Shown here: one piece after another, positions 8,148 to 45,314 of the stretch
Position numbering within the stretch: the first letter of the stretch is position 1
How the letters are laid out: every line of letters starts with the position of its first letter
Assembly (NCBI GenBank): GCA_037445575.1
Contig: JBBIKH010000005.1
Location: 1-54,689 of the forward strand
Length of the DNA stretch: 54,689 nt
Source of the DNA: a bacterium
GTDB lineage: Bacteria > Zhuqueibacterota > Zhuqueibacteria > JANLFK01 > Oleimicrobiaceae
Direction of reading: 5' to 3'
Notes under the pieces: generated by a model
Told to the model about the DNA's origin: nothing
Seen by the model: the letters and a program-made list of their open reading frames with translations, nothing else
Database searches by the model: none
Position numbers and translations under genes: made by a program

Positions 8148-8218
8148 GGCCTCCCGGCAAATGTCACCAACTGCCCAGAACGAAAAAGGAGGTGCGGCTT
8201 CCTGCCACATCCTCCTTG

Positions 8219-8292
8219 TGGGCGATACTGGACTTGAACCAGTGACCTCTGGTATGTGAGACCAGCGCTCTGACCAGCTGAGCTAATCGCCC
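8219..8292 (-). tRNA. tRNA-Val (anticodon CAC), CCA not encoded
   Basis: The 74-nt reverse complement folds as a perfect cloverleaf: acceptor GGGCGAT/ATCGCCC, D stem GCTC/GAGC, anticodon stem CTGGT/ACCAG with loop CTCACAT, T stem ACTGG/CCAGT with loop TTCAAGT. Confidence 0.95.
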
Positions 8293-18653: not shown

Positions 18654-19565
18654 TCAGTTACTTCGGTGCAAGCCCACGCTCAGCGACAGTTGCTGGGCCG
18701 TACCGATCCCATCCTGAAAAGGGGTATAAGAGTAATCCACGCCGTACCTCCCGCTACGGATGCCGATTCCCGCCGAGAGGCCGCGAGAGTCGTAGCCAAT
18801 CGCGTATCCAAGCCGCAGGGCCACCATCCCGTACAGCACACCTTCCGTCCCCAGGAGGAGCCGAGCGCTCTCGCCACGTTCCAGCAAGACATCCGAGAGG
18901 ACGCTCAGATGGCTCTGCCGAGGAGCGACGCTGATCGTCCAAGCGACCCCGCCTTGCAGCTGGTAGGGCAGGGCAACTCGCTCCTCGCGCAGCCGGCCGG
19001 TGCCCCCTAAGTTGCGGACCGCAACGCCGCAGGTGACCCCAGGCCAGCCGGTCTGGTACAGCCCCCCCACGTCAACAGCTACACCCCCAGCCGTATCCAG
19101 GTAGATTTTGTCGTAAAGGTACTTTCCCGTGATCCCGAGGTACAGGCGCTCATGCCAGCGGCGGGCATAGCTGAGGGCAAACACCACCTCATGGGCCGAG
19201 ACCACCGCCAGTGGTTCCGCCGTGGGCATGGTGCGCAGCTCGATATCGCCCACCGCCAGATGCGCCACGCTCCCTGCCCAGGCCTGGTGCTTGGTCACTA
19301 GGGTGGCCACCACCAGGTCGTGATCGATCCCCTGCAGCCATTCGTTGTGCGCAAGATATACCTGGCTGCCCCCCTGTGCTGCCAGAGCACCGGGGTTGCC
19401 CGACACGCTGGCGGCATCGCCAGCTGCGGCCACACCTGCGCCCGCCATAGCCGCCATGCGTGCTCCCGGTGCCATCCGCAGCAGCACAAGGCCACCCCCT
19501 CCTGCCCACGCGGGACAGGCGGCCACCCCCAGCAACACAAGCCACGTCCAAGAGCGACAAGCCAT
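18654..19565 (-). CDS. PorV/PorQ-like outer-membrane beta-barrel protein
   Basis: Signal peptide, then APGARMAAMAGAGVAAAGDAASVSGNPGALA (the G-A-R-x-x-A-M-G...D-A...N-P-A/G pattern of the PorV/PorQ / FadL-like family). Alternating beta-strand pattern. Ends in an aromatic-rich strand. Confidence 0.6.
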   Translation of the reverse strand: MACRSWTWLVLLGVAACPAWAGGGGLVLLRMAPGARMAAMAGAGVAAAGDAASVSGNPGALAAQGGSQVYLAHNEWLQGIDHDLVVATLVTKHQAWAGSVAHLAVGDIELRTMPTAEPLAVVSAHEVVFALSYARRWHERLYLGITGKYLYDKIYLDTAGGVAVDVGGLYQTGWPGVTCGVAVRNLGGTGRLREERVALPYQLQGGVAWTISVAPRQSHLSVLSDVLLERGESARLLLGTEGVLYGMVALRLGYAIGYDSRGLSAGIGIRSGRYGVDYSYTPFQDGIGTAQQLSLSVGLHRSN

Positions 19566-22010: not shown

Positions 22011-22020
22011 CGGGCTCCTC

Positions 22021-23208
22021 CTACCGGACCTTGAAACGACGGATAATGGTCGCACTTGTATTTCCAACCCTATCCTCCGCTTGGAAGGTGAATGTGTACC
22101 ACCCTTGCTGGATGGGGTTCCCTTGTGGGTCCCACCGCTGCGCATCCTGGTCAGCATACACAACCAAGGTGAATGTGTATACCCCGTCGCCGGCAATCTG
22201 ATCCCCGTAGGCCTGGACCTGCAAAGGGTCAAAGGGCAGGCCGTTGTCCACCATGGGAATGGGTTGACCAGCGTTGGCGACCGTGGAGTCCGGCTTGCGG
22301 GAGATAAATCCCACACGCTTGATATCTTCCCAGGACTGAGGATCGCGTACCGCCGCAGTGATGGGGACCAAAACTGCCCCACTCACCGGCTTGGCAACGG
22401 AGTCTGGCACGGTGACCTCCTCAAGAACCGGAGGCCCATTGCCGATGTAAAGCGAGGCGCGCGCCTCAGTGCTCTGAGCTCCCCCTAGGTCACTCGCCAC
22501 GAAGATGAGCTCGTGGGCGCCCATTTTCCCGGCGGCAAAGTTCGCCTGTACTCCCAGGCTGAAGCGGCCGTCTCCTGGCATCTCGTCACCTTGCGTGCCA
22601 TCGTCGGCGAGCGCACCGGCAAACGCCCAGGCACCGCCGTGCAGGGCGCGGAAATCCACCACCCGCACATCGCCCACGCCCTGGGAATCGAACACGTCGG
22701 CGCACAGGAGCACGGTGCCTTGGAAGCCACTGGGCAGGGAATCCGGGACGCTCAGATGCACGATCTCCGGTGGCGAGTTGGCGCGCAACAGGACGTTCTT
22801 GACCACCGCCTCCGACCAATGACCATCTTGATCTACTGCTCGGAATTCAACGGACATGCTCTCAGCGGTACTCTGCCCGGATGTCCGGCGCAGGCGCTGT
22901 GAGAACATGCCATCCTTGGCGATCTCGTCGCCGTCCCCTGGATGGAGAAACCCGCCGTCGTCCCACAAGGTGTCGGTGCCTGCGGCAAGGGCCTGCGCGT
23001 ACCACGTCATGAGCACAAACCGCACATCGGCCACCCCCTGGGGATCCGCCACGACCGCTTGCACCAGATACCACTGCGAGCGATTCAACACAGAAGGCAT
23101 CCTCAGTTCCAGAATGCGAGGAGCCTGGTCTTCCCAGCCGTTGGGGGACTCGGAGCTACACGCCACGATGAGGCCAAGGAATGCTACCGCCAGGCGGGTA
23201 CGCCGCAT
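22021..23208 (-). CDS. lipoprotein with three internal ~115-aa Ig-like repeats
   Basis: Lipobox LIVAC. Each of the three modules contains D-P/S-Q-G-V-x-D-V-R then GD-E-x-x-x-DG-x-F/Y-S/T (DPQGVADVR...GDEIAKDGMFS; DSQGVGDVR...GDEMPGDGRFS; DPQSWEDIKR...GDQIAGDGVYT). Confidence 0.65.
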   Translation of the reverse strand: MRRTRLAVAFLGLIVACSSESPNGWEDQAPRILELRMPSVLNRSQWYLVQAVVADPQGVADVRFVLMTWYAQALAAGTDTLWDDGGFLHPGDGDEIAKDGMFSQRLRRTSGQSTAESMSVEFRAVDQDGHWSEAVVKNVLLRANSPPEIVHLSVPDSLPSGFQGTVLLCADVFDSQGVGDVRVVDFRALHGGAWAFAGALADDGTQGDEMPGDGRFSLGVQANFAAGKMGAHELIFVASDLGGAQSTEARASLYIGNGPPVLEEVTVPDSVAKPVSGAVLVPITAAVRDPQSWEDIKRVGFISRKPDSTVANAGQPIPMVDNGLPFDPLQVQAYGDQIAGDGVYTFTLVVYADQDAQRWDPQGNPIQQGWYTFTFQAEDRVGNTSATIIRRFKVR

Positions 23209-28755: not shown

Positions 28756-29048
28756 GCCGAAATTGGCGGGAGGCTGGAGAGGTCAGGCAAAACCTTACCA
28801 GTTGTCTCCCCCAATTCCGCCCAGGCGGGATTGCGAGCGTTCGATTCGAGGATTTTTGCCCATGAGGCATCCGGTGGCTGTCCCTCGGGCAAACGTTCGT
28901 TTCGCTTGATCAATTGACCCAGAACTACCTCCTTGAGGCACAAGCCCACGGGGCAGCCAACGACCGACCAGCCCCGGTAGGAGCGCGGCCAACCATTATC
29001 TCAGCCCGGCACGCAACACGGTCCCTTTCTCGCCCAGCCACGACTGCT

Positions 29049-29310
29049 CCATTTCTCTGACAGCCCGATCGCTTCTTTTGCGCTCGGGCCACCGCCAGCT
29101 CGTCGCGCGAACCCTGCGAAGACCGTCCCCTCCAGACACTCCTCGACCGTAAGCGCAAGAACCTCACCCCCTACCAGTTCCAAAGACCGCCATGCCCGAG
29201 GCACCTTGCTCGCTTCTGTTCTCAGCTCCAGTCATCCTCGACCACATTCCCATGAGTCACACTCCTCGAACAAATCGCCGCCGCTCTGCCCGGAAGGGTT
29301 CTGCCCGACC
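29049..29310. repeat. left copy of a diverged ~260-nt direct repeat bracketing the low-GC insert
   Basis: Colinear with 36875-37130 through shared blocks catttctc, ggccaccgccag, agcgcaag, cgccatgccc, cttgctc, tcgaccacattccc, ctcctc and cggaa. Identity is roughly 65-70% by eye, with a few short indels. Confidence 0.6.
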
Positions 29311-29468
29311 AAATCTCTCTTCTGGCACAGGGCGCGGTAGCATTGGCGTCCTTTCCCTGAGCGCCACAATGCGCTGCTCCACTCGCATGGCCACTCCCTG
29401 AAGACCCTCACGCGAGGGAGGGGGATACGATCTTTGTTCCATGTTCCAGGATTCCTTAACAATTTTTC

Positions 29469-29497
29469 TTGACTTTCAGATTCTGCTTTCTTACTTT
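29469..29497 (+). promoter_or_regulatory. candidate promoter of the sensor kinase (TTGACT-N17-TACTTT) exactly at the GC drop
   Basis: ttcTTGACTttcagattctgctttctTACTTTacg. The -10 element is weak. Confidence 0.25.
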
Positions 29498-29646
29498 ACG
29501 GGCAGTTCTAATGAGAGGGAGCTGCCGGACGTAGCCTATCTGTTTGGAAATTGGGATAGCAGGCGCTTGACAGAGGATGCACGTCCTCGATTTGTTGATC
29601 CCTGATGGCGCCGAGCGAATCAAGCATAACAGGAACGGCCGCTACG

Positions 29647-32154
29647 ATGAAAGTGCCGCTAATCGTGGTTTTGATCCTCCTTTTCTTTCCCACCATCCAG
29701 TTCTGTCATGCCGCTGACCCAACTAGGAATTATGAATTCCTTCCCATCTGGCAAAGGTCAGCGTTATCTTTGGTTCCTATGGACGTAAATGCGCAAACGC
29801 CTGGCGAGGAACTCATAGTAGTCTACCCCAATCAGGTAGACGTTTTGACGAGCACTTCACTGACTCACCAAAAAAGCTTCATTGTCCCGGCCGATAAACC
29901 TTATAGCATCACGCCATTACCCGGTGAGTCACCGGATTCACTCCGACTGCTGTTCGGCTATGAAACGCCGACCGCGTCTGTTTTTAACCTATACCTTTAT
30001 GACGGCAGGGACGTTGTGCTCGCCAAAGAGAAGTGTCTCTTTTTCAGCGGACAGGATCGCGATCTAGATGGAAGATTCCATCAAACAATCGTTCCCGTTG
30101 GGCTCATTAATGGTCGAAACAACAAGAGGAATGTGCTGCTACTGGTCGATAGCGGCGGAGATGCGGGGGCTCGCGGCTTGCTTGCTATAGATCCCTCAAC
30201 GGGCAAAGAGGTCTGGCGCTACTTGGCAGGACCCCAGATTCGCCATCAAATGATTGTTGACCTAGAAAATGACGGATTGGAAGAAATTGTGCTTGGCAGC
30301 TATGCGCCCAAGAATGAGCTTAAGCTCAATGGCACCAGTGACGATAGCTGCTATGTTTTTGTGCTTGACAATCTGGGCAATGAACGCTGGCGTAAGACAA
30401 TCGGTCCTTTTTGGACCGGAGCATTTCCCATCGTCGGAGACTTGAATGGCGATGGAAAAAAGGAGTTGGTGGTCCATCGTTTTGGCACCAATCAATACTT
30501 TGCCGATTATGACGAGTTGATCCAATTAGACATTCGCACTGGCGAGCCGATCCATCGTCAAAAACTTGGTAGTCATTTCCTGGCAGCCTCCACTGCTGTG
30601 CTGACGGGAATCTGCCATGATTTTGACCTCGATGGCATTGACGAGTTCGTCATTGGCAGCACGGACGGGTTCGTGAGGATGTATCGAGGGGATTTGTCTG
30701 TGATGTGTTCGTCAGAACCCTATCGCCGACCGATCGCAGTTCATTCCGTGGCAGATATGGATGGGGATGGGCTTCTAGAAGTCATAGCATTGACAGCAGA
30801 CAGAAAGATTGTCTTCTTCAATCACCAACTGAAGCAGTTATTGATTGCACCGTTTCTGACTAATCTAGAGGATTTCTACCTGGTTAAACTTCCTCACAAA
30901 CGGCGGCTGCTGTCTTCAAACGGGCTTGCCGGTACTACGACAGATTATCAACTGTTCGACTTCCACGTCGTTGGTTTAGCTGGTGCAATCAAGAAACGAG
31001 GACAAAATTACTTGGTCATCATCTTGTCCCTTGCTGGCTTGACCGTGGCGTTGGTTGCTTTGCGAAATCATTTGTATGGCAAACGGGCTTGGCAGTTGTT
31101 GTTCCAAATACTTGAGCAAACCCATTCTTTGGATAGAACGCTGATTCTGGATCGCCATCAAAGAATTAGCCATTGGGGTAAGGACTGGGCAAGTCTGCCG
31201 CAAATTCCACCCCATCTGGCAAAAGGCAAGAAACTCCAGCAGGTCTTCGGCAACAGCCATGTTCGTCCTGTTGGCGAAGCACTGGAAAAGATGCTCACTG
31301 AAGAATTAACGAATTATCAGTGTCTCTGCCCAATCGATACCACCAGCCATGTGCCACTCCAATTCAAGGCATTGTACATTTCCTGGATCAAAGCCTGCTG
31401 CGTCATGATTTTCGACCTGCGCGAAGAGGAGCACATCCGTCAGCTCAAACACTGGGCCCAGGTTGCCCAGCGATTGGCGCATGGCATCAAGAATCCGCTG
31501 ACTACCATTAAGCTCAACGCCGAGGAGTTGCTTCACAAAGTCAGAAGCACCGATCAGATTCAGGCACAAGATGTGGAAGAATATGTCACGCCGATTATCA
31601 CCCAGATCGACAAACTGAAAAAAATGAGCGATGGTTTTATGCGGTTTGTCGAGTTCGAGCAGCCGGATTTGAAACCCTGCGACTTGAATCGTGAATGCAG
31701 GGAATTGATCCCTCAATGGCAGCCGGAAAAAAGCGGCAAAATTCAGATTGACTGGGAACTAGAACAAGACCTGCCTCCTGCTATGATCGATCTGCGGCAA
31801 TTTGAATACGCGGTCAAAAATGTTTTCTATAACGCCCTCGAAAGCATCCGTGACGAGGGCAGAATCTTGATCGCAACACGCAGCGTCCAGTTGTTTACAC
31901 AGAATGCCAATGGCGGGGGGATGTCGAGTTTTGTTGAGCTGGAAATTCGGGATACCGGCTGCGGAATTCCGCCAGAATATCTCGATCGGGTTAAGCAGCC
32001 CTATTTTTCGCTCAACAAACCCGAGGGCACCGGACTGGGGCTGAGCATCGTCCAGAAAATTATGGACTCCCACGGCGGACAATTTGATATCCAGAGCGAG
32101 GTGGGCCTGGGCACCTGGGTGATTCTGCGGTTCAAACAGGCGAGTACCAGCTAG
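29647..32154 (+). CDS. sensor histidine kinase with N-terminal periplasmic FG-GAP/VCBS-repeat beta-propeller domain
   Basis: Signal peptide MKVPLIVVLILLFFPTIQFCHA (ATG 29647; an upstream ATG at 29605 is possible). FG-GAP-like repeats DLENDGLEEIVLGS, DLNGDGKKELVV, DFDLDGIDEFVIGS, DMDGDGLLEVIAL. TM segment NYLVIILSLAGLTVALVAL and a PAS-like linker. H-box AHGIKNPLTTI, N-box and G-boxes DTGCGIP / GTGLGLSIV. Confidence 0.85.
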   Translation: MKVPLIVVLILLFFPTIQFCHAADPTRNYEFLPIWQRSALSLVPMDVNAQTPGEELIVVYPNQVDVLTSTSLTHQKSFIVPADKPYSITPLPGESPDSLRLLFGYETPTASVFNLYLYDGRDVVLAKEKCLFFSGQDRDLDGRFHQTIVPVGLINGRNNKRNVLLLVDSGGDAGARGLLAIDPSTGKEVWRYLAGPQIRHQMIVDLENDGLEEIVLGSYAPKNELKLNGTSDDSCYVFVLDNLGNERWRKTIGPFWTGAFPIVGDLNGDGKKELVVHRFGTNQYFADYDELIQLDIRTGEPIHRQKLGSHFLAASTAVLTGICHDFDLDGIDEFVIGSTDGFVRMYRGDLSVMCSSEPYRRPIAVHSVADMDGDGLLEVIALTADRKIVFFNHQLKQLLIAPFLTNLEDFYLVKLPHKRRLLSSNGLAGTTTDYQLFDFHVVGLAGAIKKRGQNYLVIILSLAGLTVALVALRNHLYGKRAWQLLFQILEQTHSLDRTLILDRHQRISHWGKDWASLPQIPPHLAKGKKLQQVFGNSHVRPVGEALEKMLTEELTNYQCLCPIDTTSHVPLQFKALYISWIKACCVMIFDLREEEHIRQLKHWAQVAQRLAHGIKNPLTTIKLNAEELLHKVRSTDQIQAQDVEEYVTPIITQIDKLKKMSDGFMRFVEFEQPDLKPCDLNRECRELIPQWQPEKSGKIQIDWELEQDLPPAMIDLRQFEYAVKNVFYNALESIRDEGRILIATRSVQLFTQNANGGGMSSFVELEIRDTGCGIPPEYLDRVKQPYFSLNKPEGTGLGLSIVQKIMDSHGGQFDIQSEVGLGTWVILRFKQASTS

Positions 32155-32333
32155 CCGCGGAATCTGTGGCACACGGATTGCAAATGCCGTTTTGTCGTGA
32201 TATGAACACGGCAGTTTGTTGTGCTGTTTATTCCACGCCAATGCTCTTGATAGGCGTTTCAACGACCTGGCCGTACCTCGAGACGCATCCAAACATGACT
32301 TACGGTGAATGAGCATAGACACGGGAAAGGCTA

Positions 32334-33695
32334 ATGTGCCCCAAATGTAACATCCTGATCACAGATGATGATGTTACCATCTGTCAAATTCTAAGGCGAA
32401 TCTTGGAAAGCGAAAACTATTAGATCAAAGAAGCTTACTCCGGCAATGAGGCGCTTTCGTTGTTTTCAGAAAATGAGTTCGACCTAGTGCTGCTGGATCT
32501 ACAACTCCCAGACAAAAACGGGATCGATGTTGCCCGGGAGATGATTGCCCAAAACCCGCTTGTCCCGATTGTGCTCATGTCTGCGTATGGAACTATTCCC
32601 AGGGCTGTTGAAGCGACGAGAATGGGCGTATATGATTTTTTGGAGAAGCCGCTGGACCGGGATCGCATTCTGGTCACGGTGCGCAATGCCCTAGTCCATG
32701 GTCAATTGCAACAGGAATTGATCCATTATAGACAGGACTCGTTAGCCCGCTATCAAATGGTCGGGCAATCGCCGGAAATCCAGCGGGTCTTTTCCCTCAT
32801 CGAAAAAATCGCGCCCACCAACTCGCCGGTGCTCATCCTTGGTGAAAACGGCGTCGGCAAGGAATTGGTCGCTCAGGCGATTCACAACCGCAGTCCCAGG
32901 GCGAATAAGCCACTGGTCAGCATCGATTGCGCCGCCATTCCGGATAATCTGCTGGAAAGCGAACTCTTTGGCCACACCAAGGGCGCATTTACCGGCGCAA
33001 GCATAGCAAAAAAGGGCCGCTTCGAGATGGCCGACGGTGGCACCCTGTTTCTCGATGAGGTGGGCGACATGAGTTTGTCAGCCCAGGCAAAGCTCCTGCG
33101 ATTCTTGGAGCGCGGCGAAATCCAGCGGGTCGGTTCATCCCAGGTCACCTCGGTCGATGTGCGGATTATCGCTGCCTCCAATAAGGACTTGAAGCAGATG
33201 GTCGCTGATAAGGCCTTCAGGGAAGACCTTTATTTTCGGTTAGAGATTTTCACCATCACCGTGCCTCCACTGCGGGAACGCCGCTCCGACATCCCGTTGC
33301 TCCTCGATTTCTTCCTTTCCTATTATGCCGAAAAAAATGCCACTGTCAAGCCCATCCTGACGCCGGCCGCCATCAAATATCTTTCGGGACTTGACTGGCC
33401 AGGCAACATCCGCCAGATGCGCAATTTTGTCGAACGTTTAATGATCATGAAACAAGGAGACCTGATCGATCTCAACGAAGTCGTCCCTCTGCTTGAAGCC
33501 AAAGAACCATCATCCCCCATTTCACCCAGCGAATCCAAACCTCTGCAGCAAGCTCGGGAAGATTTCGAGCGCGCGTACATTCTCAAAGTCCTCGAAGAAA
33601 ACGACTGGAAGGTCGCCAAAGCCGCAGAGGTGCTTCACATCGACCGGGCGAATTTGTATCGGAAGTTAAGGGGGTTGGGGATAACTGCGCAGTGA
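32334..33695 (+). pseudogene. sigma54-dependent (NtrC-family) response regulator interrupted by an in-frame TAG at 32421-32423
   Basis: ATG 32334 gives MCPKCNILITDDDVTICQILRRILESENY*IKEAYSGNEALSLFSENEFDLVLLDLQLPD... This is a receiver domain, followed by an AAA+ sigma54-interaction domain (GENGVGKE, GAFTGA, ESELFGH-type motifs) and a C-terminal Fis-type HTH. The ORF-track entry (32460) is the post-stop remainder. Confidence 0.8.
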
Positions 33696-34103
33696 AAATT
33701 CGTCGTATTCCTCTCAAAAGATAGAACCAGAAAGATTTTCATTTGAAAGCGCCGCTAATTGATTTTTTGTGTCAAATTCGCCACAAAAGTTGTGGTAGTT
33801 TTGCAGCAACATAACAAGCTATTTTTTATTAGGAATCATTTTTTATAAAATTGCAGTGTGTCGAATTCAGAATATGCAATGGGATTGCTATTGATACATT
33901 GTTTTTTGTTGCTGATTTAACATTTTATTTTTATGTGTTGATAATAATTTTTTGCAATTATTAAGATATTGGCATAAATATTGAGGGAGAAAAAAACGAG
34001 AAAAGAAAGAAACAATCGATTAAAAAAGATACCCTTTTTAAATTATATTGAGTATAATCGCTTTTGTTTGATTTATTCACTATAAGAATTTTGAAACATG
34101 CGA

Positions 34104-34144
34104 ATTCCATCGATCCGAGCGATGGAATGGGGCAAAATTTTAGC
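34104..34144 (+). promoter_or_regulatory. 9-bp perfect inverted repeat followed by a sigma54-like -24/-12 element (GG-N10-GC)
   Basis: ATTCCATCG-atccgag-CGATGGAAT at 34104-34128, then tgGGGCAaaattttAGCc with GG at 34131-34132 and GC at 34143-34144. The consensus is TGGCAC-N5-TTGC. It lies about 245 nt upstream of the cargo ATG. Confidence 0.3.
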
Positions 34145-34389
34145 CTGTAATGGGTACGTAGATGATCACTCGCTTTTAATAACAATAAATTATCAAAATA
34201 AAAATCAAATGTTAATTATATATTTAAATAATGTAAAGTATTTTCTAGGATAATAATGGATAATTTATTATTACATTTAATTGTATGTATACAGATTATT
34301 GTGATAAAATTCCCAAGAATGCTAATAACATTAAACAGTATTTCAGCTGATAACCAAAATTAAATTATTGTGATGAAGGAGATGAGAAA

Positions 34390-36246
34390 ATGAAAACAAT
34401 TTTTATAATCATGAACGTAATTTGTTTTAGCATTACTTTCGCTAGTAGCTCTTATCATCAATCAAAAAATCAACCTCCTTCAGAAGTAAATAGAATAGAA
34501 ATAGAAAGGTTAAACCCTTTTGAAGGTTATCCTAAAACGGATACTATTTCGGTCAATTCTTTAAGGAAAACATCAGTTACTAACAAATCCGAGGGACAAA
34601 ATAAAAATGGACTAGAAACACAAAAAATATACCATGTTGAAGGTCATGCTGAAATAGATTCTGCAGCGTTCATTTCGTTAAAGAAAACACCAGTTATTGA
34701 TATATCTGAAGGACAAACTAAAGCTAAAGAAGAAACACAAAAAGTATACCATGTTGAAGGTCATGCTGAAATAGATTCTGCAGCGATTAATTCTTTGATG
34801 AAAAAATTAGATATAAACAAAATTGAAGGATATACTGAAGACAAAAAAGAAATGCAAAAGGTATTATATATTGAAGGTCAGTTGGAAGAGGAGGATTCAA
34901 GCAAACAAAAAAAAACAATAGACACAAATATAAAAAATTCAAATTTGAACACTGAAACCTATACGATTTACAGTGCAGGCTGGGATTCGGAGACGGATAT
35001 AGACGGGGATGGCTACACACGATACAGAAAGTTATATTTTGATGTGGACGTAAGCTCGGGGACACACACAGTATATGCCAAGATATATTACAAGCTATAC
35101 ACGTCAAGCAGTTATTCACTTTATCTTACCACCAATGACTTTACCATTACCGAGAATTCTTCCAGTGATGAATATTGGATTGCGGTGGGTGCTCCTAATC
35201 CAGAGCTATCTCATAATATTTATGATTTTGAAATTAGGGTATACAAATCAGGTAGCAGTACTGTACAGGCTACGAGGGGTCCGTCCGAAGATAGTGATTT
35301 GAATGATGAAAATTTTGAGACTACTTCAGAGGATGGCGGGGGTAGTAAAAAGCATAATTGTCTGTACGTTGTTAGCACAGCGGATCAAAATATAATTTCT
35401 ATTTTAAATGAATTGCAATTTCATGTTTCGACTTCTAATTCTATCCCTGCAGATTTAACTTCCTACGATTTGGTGATTTGCAGGGAATACTCAGCCTGTA
35501 CGCCAACCACTGCAACTTATGTTGGCAATTTTGTTAAGAATGGAGGTGGCGCCATTTTGATGCGAGGCACGCCTTCTACATTTGGTGGCGGGGGCTATAG
35601 CTGCAGCAATATTGCTGACTGGTTTGGAACGGGACAATATAGCAATGTGGGGGTGAGTGATGCCAGAGTTGTCATTGATTATCCGCTGGGAACCTCTCTG
35701 GTCAGCAATGATGTGATTGACCACTGCAGCGGATGGGGCGGCGCTGCTGTTAAGAATGTTGCAGCGGATGTAACCGTACTGGCAATGTGGGACTATGGCG
35801 ATGGCAATATCCACAGTTTCATCCGGTCGCATCAGAATGGTCGGGTGGCATTTTGGGCAGGCGATGTTTCTTATAACGAGAAAAACCGGGAACTGTTCAC
35901 AGCTCTATGTCGATGGGTCGCAAATGCAACCACCCTCATCGAGAACCAGAAATTGACCACGCTTCCAGAAGGCTACCACTTGTTTCAAAATTATCCCAAT
36001 CCTTTCAACCCGAACACCACCATCAGCTATGCCCTGCCCCAGCCAGCCCACGTACAAGTAGAGATTTTCGATGTGAACGGACAAGAGGTCAAGCGGCTGG
36101 TGGATCAAGTGTGCAGCGCCGGGGTTCACTCGGTGGTGTGGAATGGAACCGATGAGGCGCAGCGGAAGGTCCCGAGCGGGATTTACATCTGCCGTTTGAG
36201 CGCCGGGGAAGTGGTCTTGCAGCGGAAGTTGATATTGACAAAGTAA
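34390..36246 (+). CDS. secreted repeat protein with T9SS type-A C-terminal sorting domain (unknown function)
   Basis: AAGGAG RBS 8 nt upstream. Signal peptide MKTIFIIMNVICFSITFASS. Three 39-aa tandem repeats, a DIDGDGY-containing beta-rich region and a central alpha/beta-like region. CTD FQNYPNPFNPNTTISYALP...SGIYICRLSAGEVVLQRKLILTK. Confidence 0.8.
   Translation: MKTIFIIMNVICFSITFASSSYHQSKNQPPSEVNRIEIERLNPFEGYPKTDTISVNSLRKTSVTNKSEGQNKNGLETQKIYHVEGHAEIDSAAFISLKKTPVIDISEGQTKAKEETQKVYHVEGHAEIDSAAINSLMKKLDINKIEGYTEDKKEMQKVLYIEGQLEEEDSSKQKKTIDTNIKNSNLNTETYTIYSAGWDSETDIDGDGYTRYRKLYFDVDVSSGTHTVYAKIYYKLYTSSSYSLYLTTNDFTITENSSSDEYWIAVGAPNPELSHNIYDFEIRVYKSGSSTVQATRGPSEDSDLNDENFETTSEDGGGSKKHNCLYVVSTADQNIISILNELQFHVSTSNSIPADLTSYDLVICREYSACTPTTATYVGNFVKNGGGAILMRGTPSTFGGGGYSCSNIADWFGTGQYSNVGVSDARVVIDYPLGTSLVSNDVIDHCSGWGGAAVKNVAADVTVLAMWDYGDGNIHSFIRSHQNGRVAFWAGDVSYNEKNRELFTALCRWVANATTLIENQKLTTLPEGYHLFQNYPNPFNPNTTISYALPQPAHVQVEIFDVNGQEVKRLVDQVCSAGVHSVVWNGTDEAQRKVPSGIYICRLSAGEVVLQRKLILTK
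34558..34908 (+). repeat. 3 x 117-nt in-frame tandem repeat inside the cargo gene
   Basis: Units at 34558-34674, 34675-34791 and 34792-34908. A 39-nt core (taccatgttgaaggtcatgctgaaatagattctgcagcg) is identical at 34630-34668 and 34747-34785. The third unit is diverged. Confidence 0.9.
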
Positions 36247-36258
36247 AGGTACAGTAAA

Positions 36259-36305
36259 ATGATTGACCGCCACCACCCGCATATCGAGTGATGGCGGTCA
36301 ATCAT
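36259..36305. repeat. 14-bp perfect inverted repeat (hairpin) 13 nt after the cargo stop codon; possible bidirectional terminator
   Basis: ATGATTGACCGCCA-(19 nt)-TGGCGGTCAATCAT. There is no T-run on the plus side; TTTAC follows on the minus side. Confidence 0.4.
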
Positions 36306-36874
36306 GCTGTTGAAGCGACCGCAAAATCCAATCTGCTTACAATACCTACTTTCCATACCGCAATCTTCCGTCAAACAGCAAACCAAGCCAATGTTCTGTC
36401 CGTCGGATTCGTTACGGCGACAATGCGGTTTGCTGACACTCGAACATGGCCCAAATAGCTGTTGCCATCCGCCGGGAAGATTTACAAAACAATTATTGAC
36501 CCTGCTTTGACAACGTCGGATCTTGAGCAACCTTGTAAGCCTCAGTCCTTGTGAGGCTCTTAGCCAAAAGAACCACAACGGCAAAAACGGATTGCACGCT
36601 AAAGAACATCTTCGCTTAGCTTCACTCCGCTCGCAAAGACCATTCCCCAAAAGGGGCTGTTAGAGTGGACTGTCAGCTGTAACCCAAAAACCATTATCAC
36701 GTCATTTGGTGGTGGATCGTGGCGAAACATTGCATGGGCTCGCAAAGACATGGCGTTCATTGGCTGGTTATTCAACGGGTCGTGGCAGCGCGGCAAGGGA
36801 TGATGTCGGCCCGACACGGACAACGGTAGGGCCCTGACCAAGCTACGACCCCAGCATGTGCCTGGCATCCCCGT

Positions 36875-37130
36875 CATTTCTCGGGCGTTCCGGCCACCGC
36901 CAGGTGATCGCTCAGGCCCGGCAAAGACCACCCCCAGCCAGGACTCGTCGACTGCCAGCGCAAGGGCATGACTCGCTGCCAGCTCCCCAAGTTCGCCATG
37001 CCCCAGGTCGCTCCCTTGCTCCTGCCTCTACCCCCCGTGATCATCGACCACATTCCCCTGAGCCCACGCCAACTCCTCCAGCAAAACGACACCCCTCACC
37101 GCGGAAAGCTCTTGGCCCGCCACGCCAAGG
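36875..37130. repeat. right copy of the diverged ~260-nt direct repeat bracketing the low-GC insert
   Basis: See 29049-29310. This copy starts about 30 nt beyond the terminator of the TonB-dependent receptor gene. Confidence 0.6.
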
Positions 37131-37161
37131 CGGGGCATGGCCGACAGCCACGCCGAAGACG

Positions 37162-41529: not shown

Positions 41530-42531
41530 TCAGAACGCGAAACTGAAGGTGAATTGATGGGTTGCGCCAAGATGGGCAAAATCCTTGAATGCATAGTCCA
41601 GCACCACGCGCGCGCCGGCCACGGGTAACAGGAGCCCCCCGCCTACGGTCAAACGCTCCTCGTCAAAATTGATCCGGTAGCCTCCGCGCAGACGGAGCCG
41701 CTGCAAGACCTCAAGCTCGAGACCGAGCACTGCGTTTTCCACGTTGTCCATCGGGTGGTTGATCTGCATGGCCGCCACGAGGTTGTAGTGCTCGGAGCTG
41801 TAAAGGTCACCAGCCACCCCTACGCGGAAGGTGGTCGGGGGCGCGAACGCTTCGTAGGCTTGTTCCTCCCACTCGCCCTGGACGTTTCTCTTCAAGTAGG
41901 AGCCCCGCGCCTCCAAGTCGGGGCCAAAGTTGACCAAGCTCACCGCGAAGCGCACTTTTCGGTACCCAGTCCAGTAGAAGGTGCCCAGGTCGATCATCCA
42001 TCCACCCATGCGCACGTCGGCCAGCACCTCGTCCACGTACTTTATGGACAGGCCGAAGGAGAAGCGGTTGGTCATCTTGCGCGCGTAGGTGAGGGCAGCA
42101 AAGGTGTCCTGAAAGCGGAAGTACTCGCCGGTGCCCGTGGGGTAGTATTCGTTGGTCACCTCCATGTCTGCCATGTGCAGCATGCCGAGGCTCAGGCCCA
42201 AGGTGCCGAAGCGCGGCAGATGGTGAACATAGCCCAGGAACTCGTATTGGATGTCAGCGGGCCAGGCGATATGGCTAAGGGCAAGATTGTTGTTGGCCAC
42301 CTGCGCCGCCCCGGCCGGATTCCAGTAGAGGACAGTGGCATCTCCTGCCAGGGCAGCGCCCGCGCCGCTCATGGCCACTGCCTGCGCGCCGACTTCAATT
42401 TTCAGGAACGTAGCAGAGGCGGTCCCAATGCGCTGGCCGCCCAGGAGCTGGAACGCTGCTTGCGCCCGCAGCTGTCCACCCGAGCAGAGCAGCAGGGCAA
42501 CGGCCGCAATCCACAATCGCCTCTGTTTCAT
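41530..42531 (-). CDS. PorV-like (PorV/PorQ family) outer-membrane beta-barrel protein
   Basis: Signal peptide MKQRRLWIAAVALLLCSGGQLRAQA. SATFLKIEVGAQAVAMSGAGAALAGDATVLYWNPAGAA matches the PorV N-terminal signature. C-terminal ...HQFTFSFAF. Confidence 0.7.
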   Translation of the reverse strand: MKQRRLWIAAVALLLCSGGQLRAQAAFQLLGGQRIGTASATFLKIEVGAQAVAMSGAGAALAGDATVLYWNPAGAAQVANNNLALSHIAWPADIQYEFLGYVHHLPRFGTLGLSLGMLHMADMEVTNEYYPTGTGEYFRFQDTFAALTYARKMTNRFSFGLSIKYVDEVLADVRMGGWMIDLGTFYWTGYRKVRFAVSLVNFGPDLEARGSYLKRNVQGEWEEQAYEAFAPPTTFRVGVAGDLYSSEHYNLVAAMQINHPMDNVENAVLGLELEVLQRLRLRGGYRINFDEERLTVGGGLLLPVAGARVVLDYAFKDFAHLGATHQFTFSFAF

Positions 42532-42566
42532 CTTCTTGCTACACATGCACAGTTCCAGCGCAGCGG

Positions 42567-45314
42567 TCAGAACCTGATCCCGACCCCCCATCGCACCGTC
42601 CGCGGCCAGCGGTACTTGGACGGATCGTAGATGGGATTGGGGCTTGGATTGATGTCGCGCGTGTAGCTCTTGGTCAAGATATCGCCGGGCCGGTACTCTC
42701 GCCCGGTGTACGGATTGATGATACGCGGAATCAACGCATTCAGGGCGTTCTCGATCTCAACCTGAAGATTCACCTCCAGGCCCTTGAGGCGGAAGTACTT
42801 GTAGCCACGCAGATCAAGCTGGTGCCAGGTGGGAGCAAGATTCGCGTAAGGGTGAGCTGTATCATAGATCTCACGCTCAAGATCAATGAGCCGAGTGTAG
42901 CGCTTGCCCGATTCCAATTCCCAGTGGGCGTTGATCCCCCATTTTTCCGGCAGACGCCAGCCGAATACTCTGAACCCCTGCTTCTCGCCCACGTGCAGAT
43001 TCAAGTCAAGCGTCAGGCGGATTGGCCTGTCCCACTCCAAAAAGTTCTCACGCAGCGGCTTCTCCGCCAACCTGCCCGCCTCCACCAGCAAATTGTCACT
43101 CGGCTTTGAGCTCTTCCCTTTACTCACCGCGTAGGTGAAGTTCAGGGTCCCAGTCAGGTAGCGAGCGTACCGTTGCCGCAGCCACAACTCGACCCCTTTC
43201 GAGCGGGCATAGTCCATGTTGAAGTACATCAGGTAACTGATGTTTCCCAGCCGCGGATTCTCCATCTGTACGCGCTCGGCCGTGGGATAGTCAAACATGT
43301 CCTTGTAGTAGGCCTTAAACTCCGCCACCAGGTTCTCGGTGAACTTGTGTTTGATTCCCAGCTCGTATGCCACCGTAGTCGTCGGGTTCAGGTTGGGGTT
43401 TCCGAACAACTGGTACGTAGCAGGCGAGGTTGACTTGAGCTTGGCGTACACGTACTGCCCTTGCGGGCGCTGCGAAAAGTGCCCGTAGTGAAAGTAGAGC
43501 ACATCGCGATCGGTCACCGGGTGGGAGATCCCCACGCGCGGGCTCAGATGCCCTTTGCCGCGCATGCCCAAGAAGGCAAAGGTGTCCTCATAAAATTTTT
43601 TCCGCGCCGCGCTCGAAATAATCACCGTCTCCGGGTCGTCGATCGCGTCTTGGACAAACTTGCCGGGGAACCAATAGTCGTACCGCAGCCCGACGTTGAC
43701 AATCATCCCTTCATAGGTGATGCGGTCCTGAAGATAAAAAGCACCAGCAGTGGAGTAGACGCGGTAAATGTCGTAGCTGCGGCCGTAACCGCTCTCGCTG
43801 ATCACCCAAGGATCAACGATGTCCACCACCTGCATGGTGGTATATTCGACTTCGAAACCGCCCTTCACCTGATGCTTGGGGTCAATCTGGCTGGTGAGAT
43901 GGCCCTTCAAGGTCCACGTGTCACTGAAGTAGTCGAACCACTGGCCATAGTCGCCATGGTCATAGAAACCATCACCGCGACGGATAACAATATCCCCGCT
44001 TGAGCCTGGCACATAGCGGACTGGCTCCAAGTCCAACTGCTCCACGTACTGGGACCAATGCTTGTTCTGCACCGCACTGTGCGTGGAGGTGAAAAAGTTC
44101 CCCGCCGTCAGCTCGTAGAAGGTCCGAGCTGATAACGTGTGCATCCACGTGGCGTTGGCCAGGATGCTCTCCGAAGTGAATGTGGGGTAATGATCAAGGT
44201 GCTTGCTGAACTCGTACGGGAAGTAGCGCCGGGAAATCACATAACGCCGGAAAAAGCCCTGGTTGATGCTCAGGGAGCGGTCATACGACAAGGAGAACTT
44301 TTGGTTGGGATTGACCTTCCAGGAGAGCTTGGCCAGCACGTGCCAATCGTTTTCCTCTCGCGGCGCAAACGGCTCCAGTCCGGTGCGACTCGGATACAGT
44401 CGTGACGCCTTCGGCAGGTAGGTATCAGAGATGTTCCCGTAGCCGGACAAAAAGAGGCTCACTGTTCCTGGGAAGCGCAACCCTATGGCCGGGAGGAGGT
44501 GTCTGGTGAGCAACTCCGGTCCGCCAAGATTGAACTCCACCACCTGCGTATTGTAACTCCGGAAGAGCCCAAAATTGGGTCGATCGGTCTTGACGGCAAG
44601 ACCGCCGCTGTAGGAGTCGCCACCCTCTTTGGTCACCACATCGATCACCCCCGACATGGCCTGGCCGTACTCGGCGTTAAAGCCACCGGTGATGACTTTC
44701 AGCTCCTTGATGGCATCGGCATTGACATACAAGGTGTTCCCATACCCGGAGAGGGGGTCTTTGATGGAGATGCCGTCGACGATGTACAGGCTCTCATCGG
44801 CGCGGCCACCCCGAATGTGGATCTCGTTGTCGGCCTTTACCACGCCCGCTTGCTGGGTGACAATGTCCTGCACGTTCTCCACGATGCGCTGGCGTATGTC
44901 CTCGGAACTAAAATGCACTTCTGATGCCGTCAGGTCCACCTGCAGCAAGGGCCGCTCCCCGACCACGACAATCTCCTGGCCGAACGCCAAAACTGACTGT
45001 TCCAGCTCAAAGTCGAGCACGACCTGTTGGCCAGGGGCCACCTTGACGCCGGTGCGCAGCTGGATCTTGTAGCCGATCATTGACGCCTGAATGTCGTATT
45101 GGCCAGGGCTGACCCGCTCGATAAGGTAGCGACCCTTTTCATCGGTGGCCGCACCCATGTAGGTCCCCTTCACCACCACATTCACCCCTGGCAGCGGGGC
45201 GCGCGTCTCCTTATCCACGACGGTGCCGACAATACTGCCCTTGCTGCGCTGCTGGGCAGCCAGCGCTGGGCAGCACAGGAGCAACACCGCCACTATGAAG
45301 CCCTTAGTCTTCAT
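42567..45314 (-). CDS. TonB-dependent receptor with carboxypeptidase-regulatory-like N-terminal domain
   Basis: GSIVGTVVDKETRAPLPGVNVVVKGT..., plug domain (IHIRGGRADESLYIVDGISIKDP), barrel ending in ...WGVGIRF. The ATG overlaps the upstream stop (ATGA). Confidence 0.9.
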   Translation of the reverse strand: MKTKGFIVAVLLLCCPALAAQQRSKGSIVGTVVDKETRAPLPGVNVVVKGTYMGAATDEKGRYLIERVSPGQYDIQASMIGYKIQLRTGVKVAPGQQVVLDFELEQSVLAFGQEIVVVGERPLLQVDLTASEVHFSSEDIRQRIVENVQDIVTQQAGVVKADNEIHIRGGRADESLYIVDGISIKDPLSGYGNTLYVNADAIKELKVITGGFNAEYGQAMSGVIDVVTKEGGDSYSGGLAVKTDRPNFGLFRSYNTQVVEFNLGGPELLTRHLLPAIGLRFPGTVSLFLSGYGNISDTYLPKASRLYPSRTGLEPFAPREENDWHVLAKLSWKVNPNQKFSLSYDRSLSINQGFFRRYVISRRYFPYEFSKHLDHYPTFTSESILANATWMHTLSARTFYELTAGNFFTSTHSAVQNKHWSQYVEQLDLEPVRYVPGSSGDIVIRRGDGFYDHGDYGQWFDYFSDTWTLKGHLTSQIDPKHQVKGGFEVEYTTMQVVDIVDPWVISESGYGRSYDIYRVYSTAGAFYLQDRITYEGMIVNVGLRYDYWFPGKFVQDAIDDPETVIISSAARKKFYEDTFAFLGMRGKGHLSPRVGISHPVTDRDVLYFHYGHFSQRPQGQYVYAKLKSTSPATYQLFGNPNLNPTTTVAYELGIKHKFTENLVAEFKAYYKDMFDYPTAERVQMENPRLGNISYLMYFNMDYARSKGVELWLRQRYARYLTGTLNFTYAVSKGKSSKPSDNLLVEAGRLAEKPLRENFLEWDRPIRLTLDLNLHVGEKQGFRVFGWRLPEKWGINAHWELESGKRYTRLIDLEREIYDTAHPYANLAPTWHQLDLRGYKYFRLKGLEVNLQVEIENALNALIPRIINPYTGREYRPGDILTKSYTRDINPSPNPIYDPSKYRWPRTVRWGVGIRF

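What the first reader, a model, noticed from the sequence alone, without database searches (positions are those of the whole stretch)
29647..36246. Portable sense-and-secrete cassette: FG-GAP propeller kinase, sigma54 activator, giant AT-rich control region and a single T9SS cargo of unknown function
The island holds only three elements. The first is a histidine kinase whose ~440-aa periplasmic part is built from integrin-like FG-GAP/VCBS repeats, an uncommon sensor module. The second is an NtrC-family enhancer-binding protein. The third, after 694 nt of ~20% GC DNA, is one secreted protein that relies on the host type IX secretion system. This architecture suggests a two-component/sigma54 circuit dedicated to one T9SS substrate. 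I am not aware of a described cassette of this kind. The cargo passenger (residues ~20-520) has no motif I can assign.
Basis: partly seen in the sequence, partly recalled or inferred. Interest (0 to 1): 0.72.

Follow-up and report, generated by a model that had tools for sequence, protein, structure and literature searches.

The report
Inserted sensor-activator-secreted protein cassette
An 8.4-kb piece of foreign DNA in a KSB1-group bacterium carries a propeller-type sensor kinase, a sigma-54 activator (here with a premature stop codon) and one secreted protein, and comparison with about 30 related loci suggests the kinase-activator pair is a reusable control unit in front of changing secreted-protein genes.

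Summary
The three genes are real. They lie in an 8,372-nt insertion (28768-37139) that three close relatives of the host (Ca. Oleimicrobiaceae, KSB1/Zhuqueibacterota) lack at the same intergenic site. The insert keeps the composition of lower-GC KSB1 lineages.

The FG-GAP kinase and the sigma-54 activator are adjacent in about 30 loci from KSB1, Calditrichota and WOR-3. Comparison gives a likely wiring:
- A consensus sigma-54 promoter (32167-32182) sits in front of the activator gene in 18 of 19 KSB1/Calditrichota-type loci.
- Tandem 18-bp palindromes TGTGTCA-N4-TGACACA (33768-33808) follow the activator gene.
- About 200 nt further, a sigma-54-type promoter (33970-33985) faces the cargo gene.

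The downstream gene varies among loci. Relatives of this cargo (GATase1-like domain plus T9SS tail) lie beside the same module in three other loci, and behind its control region in a fourth.

The "sense-and-secrete cassette" reading is largely supported, with corrections:
- The activator gene has an in-frame TAG at codon 30.
- The cargo promoter has a non-consensus -12 element.
- The passenger has two recognisable domains.
- No mobility gene is present.
- The spacer is 27% GC, not 20%.

Every part is a known kind. I found no description of the combination.

The parts
28768..37139 (.). Inserted segment (8,372 nt), absent from the same intergenic site in three close relatives
   Evidence: blastn of L167 and L169 against the window: homology stops at 28767 and resumes at 37140. 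Both junctions share TGGC. L175 also has the empty site.
28982..29295 (.). Left copy of an imperfect direct repeat of about 320 nt (about 60% GC, no ORF)
   Evidence: 68% identity to 36787-37106, E 6e-23, the only two copies in the window. No Pfam hit in any frame.
29647..32154 (+). Sensor histidine kinase: TM, FG-GAP all-beta ectodomain (aa about 29-441), TM, PAS-like, HisKA, HATPase_c
   Evidence: Pfam, structure model, orthologues of 825-850 aa.
32167..32182 (+). P1: consensus sigma-54 promoter TGGCACacggaTTGCA in front of the activator gene
   Evidence: The only exact match to TGGCAC-N5-TTGCW in 54.7 kb. Conserved in the kinase-activator gap of 18 of 19 KSB1/Calditrichota-type loci and in L173.
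32334..33695 (+). NtrC-family sigma-54 enhancer-binding response regulator gene (REC, AAA+, HTH_8), interrupted by one stop codon
   Evidence: Pfam and NCBIfam. The conceptual product is 409/455 identical to the L164 orthologue.
32421..32423 (+). In-frame TAG at codon 30 of the activator gene (orthologues have CAG or GAG)
33768..33785 (.). Palindrome 1 of the putative enhancer, TGTGTCAaattCGCCACA (12 of 14 to TGTGTCA-N4-TGACACA)
   Evidence: The only hit of 12 or more in the window. Orthologous sites occur in L165, L164, L005, L017, L171, L009 (14 of 14), L012, L007 and L003.
33791..33808 (.). Palindrome 2, TGTGGTAgtttTGCAGCA, 23 bp after palindrome 1
   Evidence: The same 22-23 bp spacing is seen in L165, L164, L005, L012 and L171.
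33857..33874 (.). Weaker third site, TGTGTCGAATTCAGAATA
   Evidence: Aligned with CGTGTCAAATTTACA of L165, L005 and L002.
33970..33985 (+). P2: sigma-54-type promoter TGGCATaaataTTGAg facing the cargo gene (-24 GG present, -12 is GA instead of GC); predicted start near 33996
   Evidence: A GG[CT]A[CT]-N5-TTG element lies on the + strand 121-205 nt after palindrome 1 in 9 of 13 loci. Background is 1.2e-4 per base and strand. L002 also has TTGA.
34105..34127 (+). Hairpin/palindrome TTCCATCG-N7-CGATGGAA in the 394-nt cargo leader
   Evidence: Near-identical to the hairpin just after P1 in L165 and L164. Meaning unknown.
34390..36246 (+). Cargo gene (618 aa): signal peptide, 3 x 39-aa repeats, choice-of-anchor H, GATase1-like domain, T9SS type A C-terminal domain
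34960..35334 (+). Choice-of-anchor H domain (aa 191-315)
   Evidence: NF038116, E 1.4e-28, 99.6 bits against a cut-off of 53.
35347..35964 (+). GATase1/ThuA-like domain (aa 320-525), the part shared with cargo relatives
   Evidence: 60-78% identity to P0002, P0004, P0006, P0009 and P0012-P0015. Model pLDDT 72. Foldseek: 2gk3 E 4.6e-9; 3rht TM 0.67.
35992..36234 (+). T9SS type A sorting domain (aa 535-615)
   Evidence: TIGR04183 39.7 bits (cut-off 23); FlgD_ig and Por_Secre_tail.
36259..36305 (.). 20-bp-stem hairpin after the cargo stop codon (likely terminator)
36787..37106 (.). Right copy of the direct repeat of about 320 nt

Best explanation
This is a horizontally acquired 8.4-kb segment carrying a complete two-component/sigma-54 expression module and one secreted-protein gene.

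**Inferred mechanism**
1. The membrane kinase senses an extracytoplasmic cue through a calcium-loop FG-GAP all-beta (propeller-like) domain.
2. It phosphorylates the adjacent NtrC-family activator.
3. The activator binds the tandem TGTGTCA-N4-TGACACA palindromes just downstream of its own gene.
4. It then remodels sigma-54 RNA polymerase at promoter P2, about 200 bp further on.
5. P2 transcribes the cargo gene through a 394-nt leader.
6. The cargo is exported by Sec and then by the host type IX system through its type A C-terminal domain.
7. The activator gene has its own sigma-54 promoter (P1), which suggests positive feedback.

Across lineages, the kinase, P1, the activator, the palindromes and P2 form the constant unit. 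The gene behind P2 is exchangeable. In this genome the activator gene has a nonsense codon at position 30, so the circuit may be silent, or may run on a truncated activator.

**Shown:** the insertion, the domain content, the conserved gene pairing, and the conserved position of the palindromes and both promoters.

**Inferred:** who binds the palindromes, the signal sensed, the feedback loop, secretion, and activity in this host.
For: **Insertion**
- Three relatives share flanks at 85-88% nt identity but have only 245 nt between the two flanking genes.
- GC3 of host genes is 0.71-0.80. In the insert it is 0.56 (kinase), 0.63 (activator, equal to L164 and L171) and 0.28/0.53 (cargo halves).
- The core is 73-85% nt identical to loci from 43-45% GC KSB1 genomes.

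**Pairing**
- An activator gene follows the kinase gene in about 30 loci.
- The ectodomain family has about 40 clusters at E <= 1e-30, nearly all about 790-870 aa.

**P1**
- Exact consensus, conserved in 18 of 19 KSB1/Calditrichota-type loci.

**Palindromes**
- All six hits of 12 or more of 14 in the scanned loci lie in the control region after the activator gene.
- L009 has a perfect 14 of 14 site.
- Where toxin-antitoxin genes are inserted after the activator gene, the sites stay with the downstream gene.

**P2**
- Positionally conserved in 9 of 13 loci.

**Cargo linkage**
- L171, L003, L173/L174 and L002.

**Activator motifs and T9SS**
- GAFTGA, Walker A and HTH_8 are present.
- The T9SS tail scores above cut-off, and PorV-like genes are in the window.
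Against: - The activator gene has an in-frame TAG.
- P2 in the window, and in L002, has TTGA rather than TTGC at -12, so it fails the strict -12 GC rule.
- No TGTGTC half-site lies within 400 nt upstream of P1 in any locus, so the feedback loop lacks a nearby enhancer.
- The 394-nt leader is longer than in other loci and holds what may be a decayed P1 copy.
- The downstream gene is not conserved.
- Binding of the activator to the palindromes is not shown. The motif was derived from some of the same loci used to count it.
- rpoN and the T9SS core genes are not in the window.
- No mobility gene explains the insertion.
Confidence: 0.6

Rival explanations
1. The cassette is a decaying passenger. 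It worked in the donor lineage, but after transfer the activator was knocked out by the nonsense mutation. The cargo is then either not expressed or expressed independently of the kinase.
For: TAG at codon 30, where orthologues have CAG or GAG. Non-consensus -12 in P2. The insert is absent from three relatives, so it is dispensable.
Against: There is only one lesion. The kinase, the rest of the activator (409/455 identical to L164, no frameshift) and the cargo are intact. A single base could be an assembly or strain-variant error. L002 shares the TTGA -12 element, so that is not a private mutation.
Confidence: 0.3
2. The cargo gene is only a neighbour. The kinase-activator pair controls other genes elsewhere, and the cargo has its own housekeeping-type promoter in the AT-rich leader.
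For: Downstream genes differ among loci. Toxin-antitoxin cassettes separate the activator from downstream genes in several loci. Many sigma-70-like matches occur in the AT-rich DNA.
Against: The palindromes and P2 stay immediately upstream of the downstream gene even after insertions. Cargo relatives recur with the module in three other loci, and behind its control region in L002. Sigma-70-like matches are expected in 27% GC DNA.
Confidence: 0.12
3. The palindromes are operators of a different regulator, for example a CRP/FNR-family protein that recognises 5-N4-5 dyads such as TGTCA-N4-TGACA, and not the enhancer of this activator.
For: The dyad geometry is compatible with CRP/FNR-type sites (own knowledge). 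No such sites lie near P1.
Against: Strict linkage to the activator gene and to a sigma-54-type promoter 120-205 nt downstream. The tandem sites are about 23 bp apart, as for NtrC-type enhancers. No CRP-family gene was seen in the loci examined.
Confidence: 0.08
4. Assembly artefact: a chimeric join of a low-GC KSB1 contig into a high-GC contig.
For: A sharp composition change in a metagenome-derived contig.
Against: The host sequence is interrupted and resumes within 4 nt of the same intergenic position, with synteny on both sides over more than 10 kb. A chimeric join would not return to the same site.
Confidence: 0.03

Closest known systems
NtrB/NtrC-type sigma-54-dependent two-component systems (ZraS/ZraR, AtoS/AtoC)
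   Same: HisKA/HATPase_c kinase next to a REC-AAA+(GAFTGA)-Fis-type-HTH activator. Best NCBIfam hits are AtoS/ZraS and NtrC/AtoC/ZraR, all below equivalog cut-offs. Foldseek matches the kinase core to ZraS. Tandem dyad sites lie 120-205 bp upstream of a -24/-12 promoter.
   Different: The sensor is an FG-GAP all-beta domain of about 410 aa instead of small periplasmic or PAS sensors. The putative enhancer lies downstream of the activator gene and faces an exchangeable secreted-protein gene. The activator gene has its own sigma-54 promoter without a nearby enhancer.
PilS/PilR-pilA and FlgS/FlgR (own knowledge): sigma-54 two-component pairs that drive genes for exported structural proteins
   Same: A kinase-activator pair placed beside, and acting through sigma-54 on, a gene whose product leaves the cytoplasm.
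   Different: The target here is a T9SS substrate of unknown function and differs from locus to locus. The sensor domain is unrelated.
Bacteroides hybrid two-component systems with periplasmic beta-propeller sensors (e.g. BT4663; own knowledge)
   Same: FCB-group sensor kinases that use large periplasmic propeller domains, there to read extracellular glycans and switch on adjacent loci for surface or secreted proteins.
   Different: Those use Reg_prop/Y_Y_Y propellers, fuse kinase, receiver and an AraC-type DNA-binding domain in one protein, and work with the housekeeping sigma factor.
PorX/PorY (with SigP), the described T9SS regulatory two-component system (own knowledge)
   Same: A two-component system linked to type IX secretion in the FCB group.
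   Different: PorX has REC plus an alkaline-phosphatase-like domain, not an AAA+ sigma-54 activator. It regulates secretion-machine genes, not a cargo. Its genes are not adjacent. I found no paper in the library that links T9SS cargo to sigma-54 activators.

Membership tests
NtrC-family bacterial enhancer-binding protein (response-regulator class) | AAA+ sigma-54 interaction domain with GAFTGA loop and Walker A | tested here: met
   PF00158 E 3.3e-72; GAFTGA at aa 217 and GENGVGKE at aa 170.
NtrC-family bacterial enhancer-binding protein (response-regulator class) | N-terminal receiver domain with acidic pocket and phospho-acceptor Asp, encoded in an intact reading frame | tested here: not met
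   The receiver is present (PF00072; DDD at aa 11-13; DLVLLD with Asp 55), but TAG at codon 30 splits it.
NtrC-family bacterial enhancer-binding protein (response-regulator class) | C-terminal Fis-type helix-turn-helix | tested here: met
   PF02954 E 4.3e-11.
NtrC-family bacterial enhancer-binding protein (response-regulator class) | Sigma-54 (rpoN) present in the genome | not testable with these tools
   No rpoN among the window's ORFs. Only this 54.7-kb window is available. Conserved -24/-12 promoters are indirect support.
Sensor histidine kinase (HisKA class) | HisKA dimerisation domain with H-box His, plus HATPase_c | tested here: met
   PF00512 26.9 bits (at cut-off) and PF02518 E 1.2e-17; HGIKNP at aa 612; Foldseek hits to PAS-DHp-CA kinases.
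FG-GAP/VCBS beta-propeller | FG-GAP repeats above the curated cut-off, with DxDxDG calcium loops | tested here: met
   PF13517 44.5 bits (cut-off 26.9) and PF01839 27.6 bits (cut-off 22.1); four loops.
FG-GAP/VCBS beta-propeller | Closed seven-bladed propeller fold | tested here: inconclusive
   The model is all-beta with 32 strands and pLDDT about 80-90. The Foldseek list was filled by kinase-core hits. Sequence hits to ITFG2 and PQQ propellers are weak (E 0.013).
T9SS type A cargo | C-terminal type A sorting domain above the curated cut-off | tested here: met
   TIGR04183 39.7 bits against 23.
T9SS type A cargo | Host encodes the type IX machinery | tested here: inconclusive
   Two PorV-like genes and other CTD-bearing proteins are in the window. 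The core genes (SprA, PorKLMN, PorU) are not in the window.
Choice-of-anchor H family | NF038116 domain above cut-off | tested here: met
   99.6 bits against 53.
Sigma-54-dependent promoter | -24 GG and -12 GC spaced 10 nt apart, in an intergenic position facing a gene | tested here: met
   P1 at 32167-32182 matches the consensus exactly and is conserved.
Sigma-54-dependent promoter | The same, for the cargo promoter P2 | tested here: inconclusive
   -24 TGGCAT is present, but -12 is TTGA (GA, not GC). The position is conserved in 9 of 13 loci, several with TTGC.
Genomic island / integrative element | Presence/absence polymorphism at a defined site, with deviant composition | tested here: met
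Genomic island / integrative element | Integrase, transposase or recombinase, or terminal inverted repeats or att-type exact repeats | tested here: not met
   No such gene in the insert. The only features found are a 4-nt junction identity and 68%-identical 320-nt direct repeats.
PorX/PorY T9SS regulators | Response regulator with a PglZ/alkaline-phosphatase-like effector domain | tested here: not met
   The effector is an AAA+ sigma-54 domain plus HTH_8.

The most novel reading that the evidence does not exclude
The kinase, P1, the activator, the palindromes and P2 form a conserved "socket" in KSB1/Calditrichota genomes. Genes for surface or secreted proteins, and toxin-antitoxin cassettes, are plugged in behind it by recombination at the 3' end of the activator gene. 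Several loci carry a duplicated activator 3' end next to the insert, and L002 carries only that remnant plus the control region. The whole socket with one cargo can also move between orders without any mobility gene of its own. It would be a natural, signal-gated expression platform for type IX substrates.
Probability: 0.25. Interest if true: 0.7.

Novelty: new variant of a known kind. Interest (0 to 1): 0.5.

Why it matters
- Regulation of type IX secretion substrates is known mainly from PorXY/SigP in a few cultured Bacteroidota.
- Here, an uncultured sister group shows a different logic: a propeller-type sensor and a sigma-54 activator placed directly in front of individual substrate genes.
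- The cis-elements are now mapped to the base. Binding, promoter use and signal can therefore be tested with synthetic DNA in a heterologous host, although no member of the group is cultured.
- The locus also gives a clean, dated-by-composition example of a whole signal-to-output module moving between orders of one phylum.
- It also points to the 3' end of a regulator gene as a recurrent insertion site.

Tried and rejected
- **Metagenome scan with the kinase alignment.** The patterns came from the generic kinase core, so only one full-length relative (L084) was found.
- **Foldseek with the full-length kinase model.** The list was filled by PAS-DHp-CA kinases and gave no verdict on the ectodomain fold. 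The PDB sequence search of the ectodomain gave only weak propeller hits.
- **Insert ends.** There was no Pfam hit in any of the nine frames submitted, no tblastx or blastn relative in any fetched locus, and no Rfam family.
- **AT-rich spacer and leader.**
  - No Rfam match at E <= 1.
  - No unusual RNA stability (z -0.65).
  - No IHF consensus site in the spacer.
  - No convincing small ORF.
- **Strict sigma-54 consensus in the spacer.** None at 9 or more of 12 positions with GG and GC. P2 was recognised only by comparison with other loci.
- **Enhancer half-sites upstream of P1.** None.
- **PDB sequence search of the cargo mid domain.** Nothing significant. The fold assignment came from the model.
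- **Literature.** No paper combines FG-GAP, histidine kinase and sigma-54; or type IX secretion and sigma-54 activators; or KSB1 and type IX secretion. The Zhuqueibacterota paper (PMC11683472) does not mention secretion, sigma factors or two-component systems.
- **Chimeric assembly.** Rejected because the host sequence resumes at the same site.

Full report
**1. What is at the coordinates**

Three large same-strand ORFs fill 29.6-36.2 kb.

*Kinase*
- The first ORF (29647-32154; an upstream ATG is at 29605) is a histidine kinase. It has FG-GAP_3/FG-GAP repeats, HisKA and HATPase_c, four DxDxDG-type loops and an H-box.
- A model built from 14 orthologues has mean pLDDT 78. It shows an N-terminal membrane helix, an all-beta ectodomain (aa 29-441, 32 strands, pLDDT about 80-90), a second membrane helix, a PAS-like domain and the DHp/CA core.
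- Foldseek matched only the cytoplasmic half (YF1-type LOV kinases, ZraS, HK853). The propeller fold is therefore supported by Pfam and by weak ITFG2/PQQ-propeller hits, but it is not settled.

*Activator*
- The second gene is an NtrC-family activator with REC, Sigma54_activat (E 3e-72), an AAA lid and HTH_8. GAFTGA and Walker A are present.
- The mechanical ORF starts only at TTG 32460. The real frame begins at ATG 32334 and contains TAG at 32421-32423 (codon 30).
- Orthologues have CAG (Gln) or GAG/GAA (Glu) at that codon, and 444-462-aa products.
- Apart from this one stop, the conceptual protein is 409/455 identical to the L164 orthologue.

*Cargo*
- The third gene (34390-36246, 618 aa) starts with a signal-peptide-like N-terminus (by inspection) and three 39-aa repeats (117-nt tandem array).
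- It continues with a choice-of-anchor H domain (NF038116, E 1.4e-28) and a T9SS type A sorting domain (TIGR04183, 39.7 bits against a cut-off of 23).
- The stretch between (aa about 320-525) has no Pfam hit in this protein. It is 60-78% identical to a domain in eight other proteins.
- That stretch models as a flavodoxin-like GATase1/ThuA-type fold: pLDDT 72; Foldseek 2gk3 E 4.6e-9; 3rht TM 0.67; GH42 trimerisation domains also hit.

*Spacer*
- The spacer 33696-34389 is 694 nt and 27% GC.

**2. The segment is an insertion**

- The flanks are about 61% GC and the segment about 50%, with a 27% trough.
- The left-flank deacetylase has 80-82% identical orthologues in Ca. Oleimicrobiaceae, which belongs to Zhuqueibacterota (= KSB1) (PMC11683472).
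- Contigs from three such relatives (L167, L169/L170, L175) have the same gene order as the window's flanks: HAD, lyase, HD, PdxJ, deacetylase, a small protein, then TonB-dependent receptor, NHL, PorV-like, TonB receptor. In them, only 245 nt separate the small protein and the receptor.
- blastn places the break exactly. Homology (85-88%) runs to window 28767 and resumes at 37140. TGGC is present at both junctions.
- The insert is therefore 28768-37139 (8,372 nt). Because the host sequence resumes at the same site, a chimeric assembly is excluded.
- Codon third-position GC is 0.71-0.80 in host genes. It is 0.56 in the kinase and 0.63 in the activator, the same as in the low-GC relatives L164 and L171. 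It is 0.28 and 0.53 in the two halves of the cargo gene.
- The kinase and activator genes are 73-85% nt identical to loci in 43-45% GC KSB1 genomes.
- In L164 and L165/L166, the pair sits in a different, mutually conserved context: RecA, RecX, methylase, AlaRS, PcrB, CpsB, kinase, activator.
- How the insert moved is open:
  - It has no integrase or transposase.
  - Its two ends are about 60% GC and C-rich, and each carries one copy of a 320-nt direct repeat (68% identity, E 6e-23).
  - These ends have no ORF, Pfam, Rfam or BLAST relative.

**3. The kinase-activator pair is a conserved unit**

- A genome scan with a kinase alignment found full-length relatives in KSB1/Zhuqueibacterota, Calditrichota and WOR-3 MAGs.
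- An activator gene follows the kinase gene in about 30 loci. The exceptions were loci whose contig ends too soon after the kinase, and L084.
- An exhaustive search with the ectodomain found about 40 clusters (50% identity) at E <= 1e-30. Nearly all are about 790-870 aa with the domain at the same position. The family is small and restricted to a few lineages.

**4. Wiring inferred from comparison**

*(a) P1*
- The only exact TGGCAC-N5-TTGCW in the 54.7-kb window is at 32167-32182, 12 nt after the kinase stop and 151 nt before the activator ATG.
- The same element (TGGCAY-N5-TTGCW, spacer often ACGGA) lies in the kinase-activator gap of 18 of 19 KSB1/Calditrichota-type loci and in L173.
- WOR-3-type loci, where the two genes abut or overlap, lack it.

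*(b) Enhancer-like palindromes*
- The first 250 nt or so after the activator stop are alignable between the window, L165, L005, L017 and L002, although the next genes differ.
- This stretch holds two 18-bp imperfect palindromes matching TGTGTCA-N4-TGACACA, 22-23 bp apart (window 33768 and 33791), plus a weaker third (33857).
- In the loci scanned, all six hits of 12 or more of 14 fall in this control region. L009 has a perfect site, and L171 a 13 of 14 site.
- Where toxin-antitoxin cassettes are inserted after the activator gene (L005, L017, L009, L012), the sites lie beyond the cassette, next to the downstream gene.

*(c) P2*
- A GG[CT]A[CT]-N5-TTG element on the same strand lies 121-205 nt after palindrome 1 in 9 of 13 loci. 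The background density is 1.2e-4 per base and strand.
- In the window it is TGGCATaaataTTGAg (33970-33985). L165 and L005 have TGGTATagagaTTGCA, and L002 has AGGCATgaaaaTTGAgg.
- The window's -12 element is thus non-consensus (GA for GC), but L002 shares this feature.
- The predicted start near 33996 gives a 394-nt leader, the longest among the loci. The leader has no Rfam match or unusual fold.
- No TGTGTC half-site lies within 400 nt upstream of P1. If the activator feeds back on its own gene, it must act from the distant downstream sites or without an enhancer.

**5. Is the cargo part of the unit?**

- The gene behind the control region differs among loci: unknown proteins, a collagen-repeat protein, an ankyrin-repeat protein with a signal peptide, a CsgG/LpoB-like lipoprotein, and a CARDB protein. 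The module is therefore not dedicated to one family.
- This cargo's family (GATase1-like domain plus T9SS tail; N-terminal domains swapped) does recur with the module:
  - L171 starts inside an activator gene (85% aa identity to the window's). It continues with a 13 of 14 palindrome, a second site 23 bp on, a P2-type element and the cargo relative P0012.
  - L003 has kinase, activator, control region and a three-gene operon. Its second and third genes carry the domain.
  - L173/L174 have P0006 divergent from the kinase gene.
  - L002 has a remnant of the activator 3' end plus the control region, in front of an operon that includes a CsgG/LpoB-like gene, TPR genes and P0009. P0009's shared domain is 84% nt identical to the window's.
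  - L001 (contig edge) and L172 show no link.

**6. Interpretation**

- The best reading is a horizontally acquired sigma-54-dependent two-component module that gates one type IX substrate.
- The conserved parts are the kinase, P1, the activator, the palindromes and P2. The output gene is exchangeable.
- The sensed signal is unknown. Calcium-loop FG-GAP domains usually bind extracellular ligands (own knowledge). The neighbouring CpsB, CsgG-like and TPR genes in related loci hint at cell-surface or matrix functions, but this is only adjacency.
- In this host the activator's nonsense codon may have silenced the circuit.
- A receiver-less product restarted downstream could instead be constitutively active, if the receiver is inhibitory as in NtrC1/DctD. 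The helical linker QLQQELIHYRQ fits that idea, but this is speculation.

**7. Comparison with known systems**

- The parts belong to known families (see the membership table).
- The nearest characterised systems are ZraSR/AtoSC/NtrBC for the signalling chemistry and PilSR-pilA for the layout (own knowledge).
- Bacteroides hybrid two-component systems are the nearest for the idea of a periplasmic propeller sensor (own knowledge).
- The described T9SS regulators PorXY/SigP work differently (own knowledge).
- I found no paper linking these elements.
- I rate it a new variant of a known kind, with interest 0.5.

Noticed in passing
L005 7668-8681; L006 5510-6478; L017 10417-11542; L012 13978-14846; also L019, L022, L009, L173: Toxin-antitoxin cassettes (TumE-type, MNT+HEPN/HepT, ParE/Phd) sit directly after the activator gene in at least eight loci. 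In L005, L006, L017 and L012 a second copy of the activator's 3' end (75-460 nt) lies beyond the cassette. The 3' end of this gene therefore looks like a recurrent insertion site that is regenerated on insertion.
   Followed up: partly
window 34390-36246; L002 3103-3361, 9653-9875, 11548-12124: The cargo gene is a compositional mosaic: the first 960 nt have GC3 0.28 and the rest 0.53. Its 3' part is 83-84% nt identical to pieces of a 35% GC genome (L002), including an orphan sorting-domain fragment lying between genes. This suggests that the shared domain and tail are exchanged as a module.
   Followed up: partly
window 34105-34127 (and 34082-34150); L165 12543; L164 12546: A hairpin TTCCATCG-N7-CGATGGAA in the cargo leader is nearly identical to the hairpin right after promoter P1 in L165. 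L164 has it with a compensatory inner change. The flanks align as a decayed P1 copy. It is either a trace of a past rearrangement or a shared leader element.
   Followed up: partly
window 28982-29295 and 36787-37106: Direct repeats of about 320 nt (68% identity, about 60% GC, C-rich on the + strand) lie just inside both ends of the insert. They have no coding, RNA-family or database relative, so their origin and their role in the insertion are unknown.
   Followed up: yes
L164 14552-15220; L002 5418-5999; L171 5306-6433; L172 54-1889: CsgG/LpoB-like lipoprotein genes, often with TPR genes, recur next to the module or next to cargo relatives. This hints at a shared surface-assembly context.
   Followed up: no
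L025 8973-9815, L036 8589-9434, L034 1037-1660, L084 217-504; L024 1560; L021 8007: In WOR-3-type loci a small protein with a T9SS-type tail lies immediately upstream of the kinase gene, and the kinase and activator genes abut or overlap. Consensus sigma-54 promoters precede the tail-bearing gene in L024 and the kinase gene in L021.
   Followed up: partly
L029 12370-13233: In a complete WOR-3 chromosome (CP070680.1) the activator after the kinase is only 287 aa (receiver plus the start of the AAA+ domain). This is another possibly damaged copy.
   Followed up: no
L171 (ERR14790936) and L175 (ERR14790930): The closest relative of the insert's activator-cargo part and one of the empty-site host relatives come from sequencing runs with neighbouring accession numbers. 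Donor-like and host-like lineages may share a habitat.
   Followed up: no
window 18657-19565, 41533-42591, 20565-22382, 46894-49572, 8218-8292: The host flanks carry two PorV-like genes, two further proteins with FlgD_ig-type tails, TonB-dependent receptors and a tRNA-Val gene. There is no rpoN in the 54.7 kb.
   Followed up: partly
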